From: a virus
Lineage: Duplodnaviria; Caudoviricetes
Direction: 5' to 3' (one strand)
Length of the DNA stretch: 64,000 nt
Virus record (IMG/VR): IMGVR_UViG_3300009314_000001
Positions 18,359 through 47,290 of the stretch are shown here, piece after piece (position 1 is the first letter of the stretch; each line of letters opens with the position of its first letter). The notes beneath the pieces were generated by a model. The model was not told the DNA's origin. It saw nothing but the letters and a program-made list of their open reading frames with translations, and did no database searches. Position numbers and translations under genes: made by a program.

Positions 18359-18769
18359 TTAATACACCAGTACTACACCAGTACAACATTTTTCAATTGA
18401 TTTCGGGTCGGCTAGATCAACGGAGAATTCATATCGGGTTGATTTCGTCTCTACGCCTCGTGGTAATTCAGGTAAATTAGATTTCCTATCTATACTCACT
18501 TCCATACATGGGTTCTGTGGGTGTATAATATTACACTTTACTACCCCATTAGCCACGAGAACATGAACCTTCATAGTATATGCACCACTTGTGACAGCAA
18601 ATTCATTGGTCGGTAATGCCGTGCCTTGAACCACAAAAGGTTCAACTTCTACGATTTTCCATACCAGAGGCAGTTTTGGTAATGACAAATAGAGATGCCT
18701 ACCTCGACTGGAAGGCGGACTTCTTCGGTGCCTGGAACGAAGAGCGCGAAAAGATCCAGAACCAAGCAC
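18359..18769 (-). CDS. hypothetical protein, DP-motif family
   Basis: C-terminal VDLADPKSIE; true start probably near TTG 18688. Confidence 0.6.
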   Translation of the reverse strand: MLGSGSFRALRSRHRRSPPSSRGRHLYLSLPKLPLVWKIVEVEPFVVQGTALPTNEFAVTSGAYTMKVHVLVANGVVKCNIIHPQNPCMEVSIDRKSNLPELPRGVETKSTRYEFSVDLADPKSIEKCCTGVVLVY

Positions 18770-18870
18770 CGAATCAACTACCGATCTGGTGCGATCACGA
18801 AAACAATATCTGGATCAACATGAAAACTATGCAACAGATGAATCACTGCTACTACGGGGATGAGGGATGA
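18682..18870 (+). CDS. small hypothetical protein
   Basis: MTNRDAYLDW..., ATGA-coupled to the next ORF. Confidence 0.5.
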   Translation: MTNRDAYLDWKADFFGAWNEEREKIQNQAPNQLPIWCDHENNIWINMKTMQQMNHCYYGDEG

Positions 18871-19052
18871 AATACATGATCTACCACGACGGCTCATGGA
18901 GCGATGGAGAACTCCAGAGAATGGCTAAAGGCGAGATGATTGATCGAAACGGAAAACGGTATGCCGTTTGTCGTGATTGTAATAGGGTAATCAGAATAGA
19001 TAGGCCGTTCTTTGGTTCAATTCATGTCTGCTCGGTAGAAGATGAAGATTGA
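18867..19052 (+). CDS. small CxxC..HxC protein
   Basis: CRDC ... HVC; ATGA overlap with the previous ORF. Confidence 0.5.
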   Translation: MKYMIYHDGSWSDGELQRMAKGEMIDRNGKRYAVCRDCNRVIRIDRPFFGSIHVCSVEDED

Positions 19053-19873
19053 TCTGAGCACATATCAGCACTAGCAAGCATTTTACCCACATCGAGTGGT
19101 TCGCATGCCTCCATAAAGTCAAATAATTTCTCAAATTGGTCTTTTCTTGATTTGATAATATCAATTTGTTTTTGGATCTCCATGCGGCTTGCCATAGCTG
19201 GCAGAACTGGTATGTCAACATCAGCATAGCGTAATAGCCCATTTATCTTATGCGAGCTTCCGCCGATAGAAACAAATGGACACCTAGCCTTGCAAGCCGC
19301 ATGTACTTCATGGAATCTTGCGGTCACAAAAATCTCACAATTCCGCAAAATACCTATCATCTTCCCCCAACTATCTCTCTTAATGTTTATTCGTACATCT
19401 CCTTCAATCCCAGGTTTATTTTGCCTAAGATTACCAATAGCGAGACCATACTGCTGATCGTACTTCCTTTCCTTGAATTCAGACCAATAACTCAAATCTA
19501 TATGTATATCAGCATGAATCCGGTATGTGTTCGCTAATTCTGTTTGGCTTAGAATTTCTCTGACTGAAATATATTTAGTTCTGGAAAGAGTTCTAAGAAT
19601 TCTTTTGGTTGGTGGATTCGTATCCCACACAGTGTTTATCAAATATGTTGGTATCCCTAACTTCTGAAACCTACGTAAGAGCTTCATCTTACGCTGAAAC
19701 GTACTAGAATTGTGATGCATCGATCCTTCGCCGTTAACAATTAAAGCATCAACTTTTCCAACTCCGTCATATACAGTATGCCCACTATCTCTAATCTGTT
19801 TACACAAACATCTGTAAACTTGCTTGCACCCATGATGATATCTGCTATGATTACCGGCTATCCTCACGATCAT
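19022..19873 (-). CDS. polysaccharide pyruvyl transferase family protein
   Basis: NGEGSMHH, ISVRE..S, DLSY, FVTARFH, HKINGLL. Confidence 0.8.
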   Translation of the reverse strand: MIVRIAGNHSRYHHGCKQVYRCLCKQIRDSGHTVYDGVGKVDALIVNGEGSMHHNSSTFQRKMKLLRRFQKLGIPTYLINTVWDTNPPTKRILRTLSRTKYISVREILSQTELANTYRIHADIHIDLSYWSEFKERKYDQQYGLAIGNLRQNKPGIEGDVRINIKRDSWGKMIGILRNCEIFVTARFHEVHAACKARCPFVSIGGSSHKINGLLRYADVDIPVLPAMASRMEIQKQIDIIKSRKDQFEKLFDFMEACEPLDVGKMLASADMCSDQSSSSTEQT

Positions 19874-19940
19874 AGAATTACCCCAAATACATCATTGAAC
19901 CTGAACACTACGTATGTATTGAAATACCTAAGGAGAAAAC

Positions 19941-20741
19941 ATGCCAAGAAGTCCTCTCAAATACCACGGTGGCAAATCATACCTAGCAACTCGTATTCTA
20001 GCTTTGATGCCGCCACACATACATTATGTAGAACCTTATTTTGGTGGTGGTTCAGTTCTGCTTAGAAAAGATCCAGCCAAGACATCAGAAGTTGTAAATG
20101 ATATAGACCTCGATCTTACTAACTTCTGGCGAGTCTTACAGAACCCAGCTACATTCGAAGAATTCAAACGACGGATAGACGCTACCCCATTCTCCCAAGT
20201 AGAATGGGCAGAGGCCGCACCAACAGCACCGCAGCAATATCTAGATGTGGACGCCGCGATCTATTTCTTCATCAGATGCCGCCAATCACTATCAGGTAGA
20301 GGTGTCAATTTTGCCCCTGTTTCTAAGACTCGCACACGCCGAGGCATGAATGAGCAATGTTCAGCTTGGATCAACACTGTTGAAGGTCTCCCAGAAGTAC
20401 ACGCTCGTCTCCAGCGAGTATTCATTTATCACGATGATGCTGTAGTAATCATAAAGAAGAATGATAGCGTACAGACTTTATTCTACCTTGACCCAACATA
20501 TCCCCAAGGATGTGTGGCGACACAAGGAGTTTACCGATTTCAAATGTCAGACGAGCAACACATGGAAATGCTCGCAGCAATATGTAATCTAAAAGGAAAG
20601 GTAATACTATCCAGTTACCCAAATAAGATGTATGATACTGTATTGAAGGGCTGGAAGGTGAAGAACTTCGATTTGCCGAATAATGCTGCTGGAGGCAAAT
20701 CGAAGAGAAGGATGACTGAAAGAGTTTATATGAATTATTAA
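19941..20741 (+). CDS. DNA adenine methyltransferase (Dam/D12 class)
   Basis: SPLKYHGGK, YVEPYFGGGSV, VVNDID, YLDPTY (DPPY variant). Confidence 0.92.
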   Translation: MPRSPLKYHGGKSYLATRILALMPPHIHYVEPYFGGGSVLLRKDPAKTSEVVNDIDLDLTNFWRVLQNPATFEEFKRRIDATPFSQVEWAEAAPTAPQQYLDVDAAIYFFIRCRQSLSGRGVNFAPVSKTRTRRGMNEQCSAWINTVEGLPEVHARLQRVFIYHDDAVVIIKKNDSVQTLFYLDPTYPQGCVATQGVYRFQMSDEQHMEMLAAICNLKGKVILSSYPNKMYDTVLKGWKVKNFDLPNNAAGGKSKRRMTERVYMNY

Positions 20742-45516: not shown

Positions 45517-45763
45517 GACAGCATTTGAGATTTAGTTTTTCACCATCTAGATTGAATGTTTCTACATATTCGGCCCACCCTGATATATTAGCTTTAACAC
45601 CAACTATAGATTTTGGTATTCTTCTATGTTCAATATGGGTAGTCTCACCTTCCCTCAACCATATTCTATGATGGCGAACACGCCGTTTAGCCCTCACAAC
45701 CGATATAGCAACAACATCCTTACGTTTCGTCGCAAAATCGCCATGAGGAGTACTAATAATCAT
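45506..45763 (-). CDS. hypothetical protein
   Basis: 85-aa coupled ORF. Confidence 0.55.
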   Translation of the reverse strand: MIISTPHGDFATKRKDVVAISVVRAKRRVRHHRIWLREGETTHIEHRRIPKSIVGVKANISGWAEYVETFNLDGEKLNLKCCHEN

Positions 45764-46143
45764 TCTATCGGTAGGTGTTCACACCAATCCGGCATCAGGT
45801 CTGTTAAGTGCTTCATCATTTCATCAATGATTATATCAACAATTCTAGCGGGACTTGTATTAGGATCAGTAATATCAAAACTTACCCGACAAAAACTTAG
45901 AATATCTCTACCTGGTCTACCATCATATCGTACTATTTTACAATGAAGACCATAATCCTCGAATCTTATACTAGCCCCACAATCTATCCATTCTTTTGCT
46001 CCGTCATCTTCCGCTTCCATAGCAATAACATATTCATCATTGCCATTATCATAAAAAACATGAAAATCTAATCCAAGTACTAATTTACAATGATTAGCAA
46101 TTTCCTCAGCTAATATTTCGATCAGTACCATTATCATTACCAC
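45760..46143 (-). CDS. hypothetical protein, DP-motif family
   Basis: SFDITDPNTSPARIV. Confidence 0.65.
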   Translation of the reverse strand: MVMIMVLIEILAEEIANHCKLVLGLDFHVFYDNGNDEYVIAMEAEDDGAKEWIDCGASIRFEDYGLHCKIVRYDGRPGRDILSFCRVSFDITDPNTSPARIVDIIIDEMMKHLTDLMPDWCEHLPIE

Positions 46144-46154
46144 TACGAATAAAA

Positions 46155-46245
46155 CTGGCGGGCAGGGAGTTGAACCCTGCCATTCCCGGCTACATGGCTT
46201 GCAAAACCAGCACTCCGAGCGTCCTGTCCCCTAGACCACCGCCAC
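46155..46245 (-). tRNA. tRNA-like element with over-long anticodon arm (terminal loop TTTGCAA, nominal anticodon TGC)
   Basis: TGGCGG/CCGCCA acceptor, GTCT..AGGAC D-arm, CTCGG/CCGGG stem, CAGGG-TTCAACT-CCCTG T-arm. Confidence 0.6.
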
Positions 46246-46276
46246 GGGCTATGCACACTCGCCCGCTGCCAAACTC

Positions 46277-47290
46277 TTACCAAGCCCCCGATCGTATAAA
46301 ACACTCCAACTTCTGCTCAACACACCCCCACCACTTCTCAATCGCACTTGGATCACACAAAGGAACACGAAAAAACGGATTCTTAAGCGCCTCAGCACTC
46401 ATACTAAAAACAAGATCCCCATCATGAACCACAGTACTACACTTCCTAGCAGAATCAACATCCACATGAAACCCAAGTAACGTCACAAGAATCTTCCAAC
46501 CCTGCAGAAAAAACCGCACCTGCACCCTCCGACCAAGCTCAAGAACAAGCAAAGCAACCTCATCCAACTCACAACCATGAACCTCCAACAACTCAGTACA
46601 CCTCACCCCACGCTGACCAACAAGAACCCTAATAAAATCCTCATTAGAACTCTTCCCCTTAGCAAGATTCACCCACTTGCAAAGCAACTGAACATTACCC
46701 CTCGTATAGCCCTCATCAGAATCAATACGGTCAACAGAAATACTACAAAGATCGCCAAACTTATGAGTCATAGGAAGACCACTAAGAGCACAACGGCCGC
46801 CCCGCTCTTCATAAAGCCCCCACAAATCCTCAAAAGTAATAGAGACTCCCAGCAAAGCTCTTTGTCTATTTGGATAAGTAGTTATTTTTCCTTTTCTAGC
46901 TTGATTTGATTGTTTTGTAAGATGATGCATTAGATTCCTGATAAAAGCTTCAGGAGACCTTTGGATAGCTTTCCGAACTGAAGCTATCCGCTGTTTCTTA
47001 TTCTTCTGATAATCATCTTTTTTATATTGTTTCAATCGGTCAGCATGGTCTTTTCTGTATTGTTCATGAACTTTACTTTGGCATTCACGGCAAATATTAC
47101 TGCCCTTCTTGAAAGGCTTTGAATCACGTGGATCACCGCATTCGCGACACTTATTCGGATCATTTCTTGTAGATCTTTCGGCTTCTATATGTCCACAGGA
47201 AGTACATATCCACCTTTCAGGCTTCTTTGGGTGTGTAAAAATAGTATGCCCGCATTCACTACATTTCTCAGGCTTCTTTAATGATGTCAT
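46277..47290 (-). CDS. HNH-type endonuclease with N-terminal Zn ribbons and C-terminal DP-motif domain
   Basis: CALSGLPMT..SVDRIDS..YTRGNVQLLC..VNLAK; start MTSLKK after AGGAG. Confidence 0.8.
   Translation of the reverse strand: MTSLKKPEKCSECGHTIFTHPKKPERWICTSCGHIEAERSTRNDPNKCRECGDPRDSKPFKKGSNICRECQSKVHEQYRKDHADRLKQYKKDDYQKNKKQRIASVRKAIQRSPEAFIRNLMHHLTKQSNQARKGKITTYPNRQRALLGVSITFEDLWGLYEERGGRCALSGLPMTHKFGDLCSISVDRIDSDEGYTRGNVQLLCKWVNLAKGKSSNEDFIRVLVGQRGVRCTELLEVHGCELDEVALLVLELGRRVQVRFFLQGWKILVTLLGFHVDVDSARKCSTVVHDGDLVFSMSAEALKNPFFRVPLCDPSAIEKWWGCVEQKLECFIRSGAW

What the first reader, a model, noticed from the sequence alone, without database searches (positions are those of the whole stretch)
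18359..46400. Expanded small-protein family sharing a C-terminal hydrophobic-x-hydrophobic-x-D-P-x-S motif
Seen in eight otherwise unassignable ORFs, just before a final helix: VDLADPKSIE (18359), FVLADPVFPQNLVEYVK (25009), FEFNDPKSID (25386), IDLMAPNSID (25930), FQYCCPDFPDNFIELVK (26750), IDLVNPNAFD (30168), FDITDPNTSP (45760) and VPLCDPSAIE (fused to the HNH at 46277). Inference: one roughly 110-130 aa fold has been amplified and diversified, as expected for host-takeover or anti-defence factors.
Basis: partly seen in the sequence, partly recalled or inferred. Interest (0 to 1): 0.75.

Follow-up and report, generated by a model that had tools for sequence, protein, structure and literature searches.

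The report
Expanded small-protein family in marine megaphages
Seven of the eight flagged small genes belong to a real, previously undescribed and fast-diverging protein family that some giant marine T4-like phages carry in up to two dozen or more copies; its function is untested, but it looks like a scaffold for binding other proteins.

Summary
All eight motif instances are in the sequence as described. The loose motif occurs 16 times in the window proteome, against about 4 after shuffling. It is about five times rarer in related phage loci that lack the family.

The eight ORFs show no significant pairwise similarity to each other. Relatives settle the question. A profile built only from 67 members in other phages ranks p3, p2, p4, p5, p6, p1 and p7 as the top seven of 676 six-frame window segments (E 3e-7 to 0.03). 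The HNH C-terminal domain (p8) is not recovered (E 4.3).

Related contigs carry 17 and 23 or more copies. One 12-kb contig has 16 in tandem. Thirteen other related contigs gave no hit.

Models show helix, five-strand sheet, helix. The motif is the junction between the last strand and the C-terminal helix. The consensus is [FY]-[DE]-[LI]-small-[DN]-P-x-[FS].

Pfam, PHROGs and PDB sequence searches give nothing. Fold matches are only generic (YbjN/type III chaperone, frataxin, PsiB, an immunity protein).

Best reading: a lineage-specific, birth-and-death family of non-enzymatic binders located among accessory genes. The function is inferred, not shown.

The parts
18359..18574 (-). p1: a 71-aa truncated or relic member. 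It has the strands, the motif VDLADPKS and a short helix, but no N-terminal helix.
   Evidence: The other-phage profile gives E 5.7e-4, rank 6 of 676. Best pairwise hit is L003:2497-2835. Gene callers did not call it; it lies in a 349-nt gap upstream of the VWA gene.
25009..25386 (-). p2: a 125-aa member of the 'DP-x-F-P-x-N' subfamily.
   Evidence: The other-phage profile gives E 2.7e-6; an earlier 32-member profile gave 2.2e-7. It aligns with the 16-copy tandem array of L123. ESM Atlas model pTM 0.60.
25386..25943 (-). p3: 185 aa, with the family domain at about residues 1-130 and a C-terminal helical extension.
   Evidence: The other-phage profile gives E 3e-7, the top hit. The gene-caller start is taken from P0003.
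25930..26274 (-). p4: a 114-aa member (motif IDLMAPNS, D replaced by A).
   Evidence: The other-phage profile gives E 6.9e-5. It aligns at 24% identity over 93 residues with L003:12301-12669.
26750..27205 (-). p5: a 151-aa member with a degenerate motif (FQYCCPDF) and a basic C-terminal tail.
   Evidence: It has two homologues in G004 (E 2.3e-14 and 7.2e-7) that carry canonical C-N-P-D-Y-P and A-D-P-E-F-P motifs. Once those are in the profile, E is 7.7e-5.
30168..30548 (-). p6: a 126-aa basic member (IDLVNPNA); the protein that was modelled.
   Evidence: The other-phage profile gives E 4.5e-4. AF2 pLDDT 74, pTM 0.61, order helix, five strands, helix. ESM Atlas pTM 0.70.
45760..46131 (-). p7: 123 aa, a probable member (FDITDPNT), downstream of the capsid gene, the HNH gene and tRNA-Ser.
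   Evidence: The other-phage profiles give E 0.015 to 0.031, ranks 6-7 of 676 and directly below the other members. Best pairwise hit is L003:17021-17386. Its nearest ESM Atlas feature cluster is the same one found for p2 and p6. It sits in a position where relatives carry family clusters.
46277..46630 (-). p8: the C-terminal ~110 aa of the HNH endonuclease ORF (46277-47290). It is motif-bearing (VPLCDPSA), but membership is unproven.
   Evidence: Profile E 4.3, rank 15. No homologue in five related genomes. The AF2 model built with the family alignment has the same element order but pLDDT 63 and pTM 0.49. HNH homologues in relatives are 227-283 aa and lack this domain.

Best explanation
These ORFs belong to a genuine, previously unnamed multigene family. 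It is restricted to one sub-lineage of giant marine T4-like phages.

Each member is a soluble protein of about 95-150 aa. The predicted order is an N-terminal amphipathic helix, a five-stranded antiparallel sheet and a C-terminal helix.

It is the end of the last strand, the Asp/Asn-Pro cap and the first turn of the C-terminal helix. It therefore defines the fold and is not a catalytic site. Outside it, only a strand-turn block (h-x-h-h-h-x-[DN]-G) and an acidic pair in helix 1 recur.

The family evolves by birth and death. It forms tandem arrays, copy number varies widely between related phages, and some members are internally duplicated. Sequence diverges far faster than in core genes.

Inferred, not shown: the proteins act without enzymatic activity as stoichiometric binders of host or rival proteins during infection, either as inhibitors or as adaptors. 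The conserved core would hold up variable surfaces.
For: Family is real:
- A related contig (L003) has 7 small ORFs with the same C-terminal motif in 21 kb.
- Profiles then find further small ORFs with the motif in the same register in G003, G001, G004, L046 and L123.
- A profile of 67 members from other phages only ranks p3, p2, p4, p5, p6, p1 and p7 as the top 7 of 676 window segments.
- p5 is linked through G004 homologues.

Fold:
- AF2 model of p6 has pLDDT 74, with helix 3-28, five strands and helix 98-114.
- The independent ESM Atlas models have pTM 0.70 (p6), 0.60 (p2) and 0.51 (p7).
- Those three share nearest feature clusters and several structural neighbours.

Motif position and logo.

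No enzyme-like invariant residues. Only P is invariant, and D/N is present in 62 of 66 sequences.

Turnover:
- 23 hits in G004, 17 in G003, 2 in G001, 1 in G010 and 0 in 13 other related contigs, four of them CheckV-complete.
- 16 members in tandem on a 12-kb contig.
- Tandem-duplicated proteins P0020, P0024 and P0025.
- p5 is 30% identical to its G004 homologue, while the capsid protein is 87% identical.

Context:
- Members lie among unidirectional arrays of small unassignable ORFs. In G004 this is about 150 ORFs in 63 kb.
- In the window, p2-p5 follow the MoxR-like ATPase in one tightly packed minus-strand run.

- TriTu immunity protein
- PsiB
- YbjN/DR_1245/AmyR
- type III secretion chaperones
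- AcrIIA11
- frataxin
YbjN and CesT clusters are also structural neighbours of p7.
Against: - No experiment or expression datum bears on function.
- Net charge is mixed: median pI is 5.5, but 18% of members are basic. One shared target type is therefore unlikely.
- The acidic residues conserved around the D-P could form a functional site rather than a purely structural one.
- The eight window copies cannot be linked to each other directly.
- p8 is not supported.
Confidence: 0.55

Rival explanations
1. The motif is a chance or generic strand-turn-helix junction (Asp-Pro helix cap), and the ORFs are unrelated.
For: There is no significant pairwise BLAST hit among the eight. Leave-one-out profiles with the motif removed fail for most of them. 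D-P is a common helix cap (general knowledge). The same loose motif also occurs in 8 unrelated larger window proteins.
Against: A profile from other phages picks seven of the eight as the top seven of 676 segments. The motif is enriched about 4-fold over shuffles and about 5-fold over family-poor relatives. Dozens of same-sized ORFs in relatives share the motif in the same register, together with a second conserved block and an N-terminal helix.
Confidence: 0.03
2. They are virion-packaged internal or ejected proteins, like T4 IPI-IPIII, delivered with the DNA to act at once on host defences.
For: p7 and p8 lie directly downstream of the major capsid gene. A CAAAAATA element shared with structural genes abuts the HNH ORF start. 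Relatives also carry family clusters within a few kb of the capsid gene (L046, G001). Small size and rapid turnover resemble the T4 internal-protein locus (general knowledge).
Against: Most copies lie far from structural genes, in arrays of small ORFs. The N-terminal helix is predicted to be an integral part of the fold rather than a cleavable leader. No prohead-protease site was tested.
Confidence: 0.1
3. They are nucleic-acid-binding regulators or accessory DNA-binding domains, for example for homing endonucleases.
For: p8 is attached to an HNH nuclease. HNH-endonuclease clusters appear among the structural neighbours of p6 and p7 (TM 0.48-0.61). Weak Foldseek rows include PUR-alpha and ThermoDBP. 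Some members are basic (p6 pI 9.8, p5 pI 8.5).
Against: 60% of members are acidic. HNH homologues at the same position in relatives lack the domain. p8's membership is itself unproven. None of the structural rows is significant.
Confidence: 0.1
4. The conserved acidic junction is a common docking site. The paralogues would then be interchangeable adaptors that bring different clients to one machine, for example the neighbouring MoxR-type AAA+ ATPase and its VWA-metallopeptidase partner.
For: Acidic residues recur at positions -4, -1, +1 and +4 around the invariant Pro. In both the window and G003 the family cluster directly follows the MoxR-like ATPase on the same strand. p1 abuts the VWA/DUF2201 gene. 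The ATPase and VWA genes each carry the same upstream bipartite motif.
Against: In G004 and L123 the large arrays have no such neighbour among the genes examined. G001 keeps the ATPase but has only two family members, both located elsewhere. No interaction was tested.
Confidence: 0.1

Closest known systems
[quoted passage not shown] DR_1245 4h5b, AmyR 5fr7, ExsC 3kxy, SycN-YscB 1xkp)
   Different: No sequence relationship. The Pfam scan of 40 members gives nothing. The YbjN model finds nothing in G003 or G004 while ringing in 10 of 14 control genomes. Those chaperones have a helix inserted between strands 3 and 4 (recalled from the literature, not tested here); the p6 model has none.
Frataxin / CyaY (4jpd, 2fql, 4hs5)
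   Different: No Pfam or PDB sequence hit. There is no iron-sulfur context. Frataxin is a single-copy conserved gene, not an expanded and diverging family.
PsiB, the plasmid-encoded inhibitor of RecA (PF06290, 3nct)
   Different: Those scores are within chance range by the tool's own notes. There is no Pfam hit. PsiB is not expanded.
TriTu immunity protein of the Rhs toxin TreTu (7zhm_D) and anti-CRISPR AcrIIA11 (9utm_B)
   Different: There is no adjacent toxin gene, apart from the HNH gene next to the unproven p8. There is no sequence similarity.
Lineage-specific expansions of small domains in jumbo phages, e.g. about 35 zinc-ribbon copies in Bacillus phage G (PMC7824862)
   Same: The same phenomenon: one small domain amplified to tens of copies in one giant-phage lineage, with unknown function.
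   Different: A different fold and a different phage group. The present family has no Pfam, PHROG or PDB relative.

Membership tests
The megaphage '[FY]-[DE]-[LI]-x-[DN]-P' family defined in this report | Significant match to a profile built only from members in other phages | tested here: met
   p3 3e-7, p2 2.7e-6, p4 6.9e-5, p5 7.7e-5, p6 4.5e-4, p1 5.7e-4. p7 is marginal at 0.031 (rank 7 of 676). p8 is not met at 4.3.
The megaphage '[FY]-[DE]-[LI]-x-[DN]-P' family defined in this report | Motif at the junction between the last strand and the C-terminal helix of a helix, five strands, helix protein of about 95-150 aa | tested here: met
   p6 model. The p8 domain model has the same order at low confidence. 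The logo from 66 members is. Only two proteins were modelled.
YbjN (PF10722) / CesT-type secretion chaperones | Match to the Pfam profile | tested here: not met
   No hit at E <= 0.1 in 40 members. PF10722 finds nothing in G003 or G004 at E <= 1, with positive controls in 10 of 14 genomes.
YbjN (PF10722) / CesT-type secretion chaperones | Shared fold | tested here: inconclusive
Frataxin/CyaY (PF01491) | Match to the Pfam profile or to PDB sequences | tested here: not met
   No hit.
Frataxin/CyaY (PF01491) | Shared fold | tested here: inconclusive
PsiB (PF06290) | Match to the Pfam profile | tested here: not met
Toxin-immunity pair (TriTu-like) | Gene immediately next to its cognate toxin gene | tested here: not met
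   The neighbours of p1-p7 are an ATPase, a phosphoesterase, a sulfotransferase, other family members and unassigned ORFs. Only p8 adjoins an HNH nuclease.
T4-type internal proteins | Cleavable N-terminal capsid-targeting leader and presence in virions | not testable with these tools
   The N-terminal helix is modelled as part of the fold. No proteomic data are available.
HNH endonuclease (N-terminal 250 aa of the p8 ORF) | Match to HNH / endonuclease VII profiles | tested here: met
   phrog_1035 E 1.7e-17 and phrog_3118 E 1.6e-10. Homologues lie at the same position downstream of the capsid gene in many relatives.

The most novel reading that the evidence does not exclude
The family is a phage-encoded repertoire of diversified binders built on one minimal scaffold. 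The invariant acidic strand-cap-helix junction would dock every paralogue onto a common phage or host machine. The hypervariable remainder would select different host or rival targets. On this reading, tandem amplification and rapid turnover are an arms-race read-out, and each giant phage carries its own set of up to about 30 specificities.
Probability: 0.12. Interest if true: 0.85.

Novelty: new member of a known kind. Interest (0 to 1): 0.55.

Why it matters
Giant marine phages are uncultured, and most of their genes are unassigned. This work turns eight unassigned ORFs into a defined family with a profile, a consensus, a fold model and about 90 members across phages. The family accounts for a visible share of the small-gene regions of some genomes: 16 of 28 genes on one contig, and at least 23 in a 408-kb genome.

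Families that expand, diverge and come and go this fast are prime candidates for host-takeover or counter-defence factors. The family therefore gives a concrete, testable set for expression screens. It also gives a marker for one megaphage sub-lineage.

Tried and rejected
- All-against-all BLASTP of the window proteome found no significant link among the eight.
- Leave-one-out profiles of the eight alone were weak with the motif. With the motif removed they failed for five of the eight; p4, p5 and p6 ranked 2, 10 and 12.
- Subfamily profiles did not recover p5 or p8. p5 was later recovered through its G004 homologues.
- Pfam, PHROGs and PDB sequence searches gave nothing above noise. The fused or extended members gave only a sub-threshold DUF1257 hit in L018.
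- Foldseek against PDB and BFVD gave no match at E <= 0.001.
- The word-indexed protein searches returned almost only the training members.
- The exhaustive representative search found only 26 proteins at E <= 0.001, most of them training members.
- Homodimer prediction of p6 gave no verdict. It does not bear on binding either way.
- Sequencing-run search: no RNA holder is listed.
- No whole genome is held for the window. An exact DNA word from the window was not found in viral contigs. The window's own metagenome contig could not be searched as a record. The family's copy number in the window's full genome is therefore unknown.
- tblastn of the eight against the three closest ATPase loci gave no orthologues.
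- The p8 domain has no homologue in five related genomes.
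Full report
WHAT THE WINDOW IS
The window is part of a very large marine phage. Its major capsid protein (47398-48993, minus strand) is gp23-like. Its best match among deposited phages is 37% identity to a 595-kb uncultured huge phage. About 170 IMG/VR contigs encode capsid proteins 73-89% identical, several on contigs of 340-408 kb. No whole genome is held for the window. Its proteins occur on metagenome contigs of up to 340 kb.

CHECKING THE OBSERVATION
All eight strings are present in minus-strand ORFs at the stated positions.
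- It occurs 16 times in 20,836 aa of non-overlapping window ORFs. Residue-shuffled proteins give 4.2 +/- 2.0, maximum 10.
- In 15 loci from related phages that have few or no family members, the rate is 0.16 per 1000 aa, equal to the shuffle expectation. The window rate is 0.77 per 1000 aa.
- A C-terminal copy is present in 6 of 38 small window ORFs and 2 of 127 small ORFs in those loci (p = 0.002).

ARE THE EIGHT RELATED?
From the window alone this cannot be shown.
- No pairwise BLAST hit among them is significant.
- Leave-one-out profiles lose most members once the motif is masked.
- Pfam and PHROGs give nothing.

Relatives decide the matter.
- A contig whose MoxR-like ATPase is 57% identical to the window's (L003, from a 234-kb IMG/VR contig, G003) carries seven ORFs of 113-143 aa within 21 kb. 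Six have the motif near the C-terminus; one 143-aa ORF (L003:12672-13103) has it mid-protein at residue 65, followed by a C-terminal extension.
- A profile of these plus the window copies found about ten more in G003 and two in G001. Every one is a small ORF with the motif in register.
- Further members came from these sources:
  - loci around the capsid gene in other relatives, including eight in L046;
  - G004, a 408-kb CheckV-complete contig, with 23 hits and about 30 by ORF scan of a 63-kb stretch;
  - a 12-kb contig, L123, with 16 members in an unbroken tandem array.

The clean test used a profile built only from 67 members of other phages, searched against all 676 six-frame segments of at least 40 aa in the window. 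Its seven best hits were p3 (3e-7), p2 (2.7e-6), p4 (6.9e-5), p5 (7.7e-5), p6 (4.5e-4), p1 (5.7e-4) and p7 (0.031). The next segment scored 0.43, and p8 scored 4.3 at rank 15.

Notes on individual members:
- p5 has a degenerate motif (C-C-P). It has two clear homologues in G004 (E 2.3e-14 and 7.2e-7) with canonical motifs.
- p7 is marginal by profile. It is supported by its best pairwise hit, by its position and by sharing its nearest language-model cluster with p2 and p6.
- p1 is a 71-aa ORF that gene callers skip. It lacks the N-terminal helix and is probably a relic.
- No further member exists in the window.

THE HNH FUSION (p8)
The ORF downstream of the capsid gene is an HNH endonuclease (phrog_1035, E 1.7e-17). 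Homologues sit at the same place in many relatives, but they are 227-283 aa and end where the window's extra ~110 residues begin.
- The extra domain has the motif and a plausible helix-strand pattern.
- It has no profile support and no homologue in five related genomes.
- A model made with the family alignment has the same element order, but only pLDDT 63 and pTM 0.49.
- HNH-endonuclease clusters do appear among the structural neighbours of p6 and p7 (TM 0.48-0.61). The architecture may therefore recur elsewhere.

I leave p8 as possible but unproven. It may be a family gene fused by insertion of the mobile nuclease.

ANATOMY
The logo from 66 members is [FY]-[DE]-[LI]-[ASC]-[DN]-P-x-[FS]-[FPIL]-[DE]-x-[ILV]. 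Pro is invariant, and Asp or Asn is present in 62 of 66.

There are two subtypes:
- 'D-P-x-S-h-[DE]', seen in p1, p3, p4 and p6.
- 'D-P-x-F-P-x-N', seen in p2, p5 and the whole L123 array.

Upstream there is a strand-turn block (h-x-h-h-h-x-[DN]-G) and an N-terminal amphipathic helix with an acidic pair.

The AF2 model of p6 has pLDDT 74 and pTM 0.61. It shows helix 3-28, strands 29-35, 42-48, 51-58, 61-70 and 82-92, and helix 98-114. The motif (residues 91-98) spans the end of the last strand, the turn and the helix start. The ESM Atlas holds its own single-sequence models of p6, p2 and p7 (pTM 0.70, 0.60, 0.51). My AF2 model retrieves the same Atlas neighbours as the Atlas model of p6. The fold is therefore not an artefact of my alignment.

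I read the D-P as a helix N-cap. This rests on the model and on general knowledge of helix capping, and is an inference. The acidic residues at -4, -1, +1 and +4 could also form a site.

COMPARISON WITH KNOWN FAMILIES
- There is no sequence relationship to any Pfam, PHROG or PDB entry.
- The exhaustive search of 1.84 billion representatives found only 26 proteins at E <= 0.001. Most were training members. The new ones included three internally duplicated proteins.
- Foldseek found nothing significant in PDB or BFVD.
  - a Mediator subunit domain
  - the TriTu immunity protein
  - frataxin/CyaY
  - capping protein
  - PsiB
  - DR_1245 and AmyR (YbjN family)
  - several type III secretion chaperones
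  - AcrIIA11
- The Pfam YbjN model finds nothing in G003 or G004, although its controls respond.

The family therefore shares a common binder-type sandwich architecture but is not a demonstrable member of any named family.

EVOLUTION AND CONTEXT
Copy number is 23 or more in G004, 17 in G003, 7 in this 64-kb window, 8 in 13 kb of L046 and 16 in 10 kb of L123. It is 2 in G001, 1 in G010 and 0 in 13 other related contigs, four of them complete.

Each window member has its closest relative in another phage, not in the window. Of 57 members with a significant best hit, 19 have it in the same genome. Old subfamilies therefore coexist with local tandem bursts.

Divergence is extreme. p5 is 30% identical to its G004 homologue, where the capsid proteins are 87% identical. 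The closest ATPase loci contain no orthologues of p1-p6.

Members sit in long unidirectional runs of small unassignable ORFs. In the window, p5, p4, p3 and p2 follow the MoxR-like ATPase in one tightly packed minus-strand run behind a TTTAAC-N15-GTAACA element. p1 abuts the VWA/DUF2201 gene, which has the same element. G003 likewise has its cluster just downstream of the ATPase.

MECHANISM
Shown:
- The family is real and lineage-restricted.
- It has high turnover.
- It has no enzyme-like invariant residues.
- It has a sandwich fold with the motif at the strand-helix junction.

Inferred:
- Non-enzymatic binding of other proteins.
- Variable surfaces carrying specificity.

The rivals are packaged internal proteins, nucleic-acid binding, and adaptors for the MoxR/VWA pair. 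None is excluded, and each has a stated test.

The homodimer job gave no verdict. No RNA run holding the region is listed. Neither bears on the question.

VERDICT
The 'amplified fold' reading is supported for seven of the eight ORFs and is much stronger in relatives. The functional label is unproven.

This is a new protein family within a known phenomenon: lineage-specific expansion of a small domain in giant phages, as with the roughly 35 zinc ribbons of phage G (PMC7824862). The literature searches run here turned up no description of it.

Noticed in passing
window 46155-46244 (-): tRNA-Ser (anticodon GCT) lies between the HNH ORF and p7. It is the only tRNA in the window.
   Followed up: no
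window 46277-47290 (-); L029-L106 just downstream of the capsid gene: The position immediately after the major capsid gene is occupied by HNH endonucleases of varied length and identity (26-50%) in many relatives, and by other large ORFs in some. It looks like a homing-endonuclease hot spot.
   Followed up: partly
window 28997-29023 (-), 18305-18332 (-), 24761-24787 (+): There are three copies of TTTAAC-N15/16-GTAACA. Two lie directly upstream of the MoxR-like ATPase and of the VWA/DUF2201 metallopeptidase gene, which are 9 kb apart. This suggests co-regulation of that pair.
   Followed up: partly
window 47360-47367 (-): CAAAAATA abuts the first ATG of the HNH ORF. The same octamer family occurs 17 times in the window, often upstream of structural-looking genes.
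   Followed up: no
window 40874-41620 (-) versus 47398-48993 (-): Residues 13-34 of a 248-aa ORF are 64% identical to residues 472-493 of the major capsid protein (E 1.4e-6 within the window). It may be a capsid-derived fragment or a vertex-protein relic.
   Followed up: no
window 28999-29529 (-) and 29477-30148 (-): Two adjacent unassigned ORFs share a Trp-rich stretch (W-W-R-D-K-F-W-V versus W-F-W-Q-D-K-F-W-V; 7 of 12 residues identical). They may form another small paralogue pair.
   Followed up: no
window 14189-15715 (+) versus 34499-35503 (-); 33727-34551 (+) versus 37260-37604 (+); 23617-24504 (+) versus 44063-44857 (-): Three further intra-window paralogue pairs: 33% over 344 aa, 41% over 128 aa, and two radical-SAM-like proteins at 23% over 148 aa.
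   Followed up: no
G004 (IMGVR_UViG_3300000976_000008) 160000-223500: A 63-kb stretch holds about 150 mostly minus-strand ORFs of 50-360 aa. Only one matches any window protein. It has the look of a hyperplastic accessory region, and about 30 family members lie in it.
   Followed up: partly
L018:1120-1812 (-) in G003: One family member carries an extra C-terminal ~115 aa with a sub-threshold DUF1257 match (E 0.0036).
   Followed up: no
L024, L025, L026 versus the window around 30550-33600: Near-identical strains differ by gene replacements next to p6. One has a 268-aa gene in place of the 235-, 240- and 376-aa genes. Another has a 114-aa gene directly upstream of p6. This is strain-level cassette turnover.
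   Followed up: no
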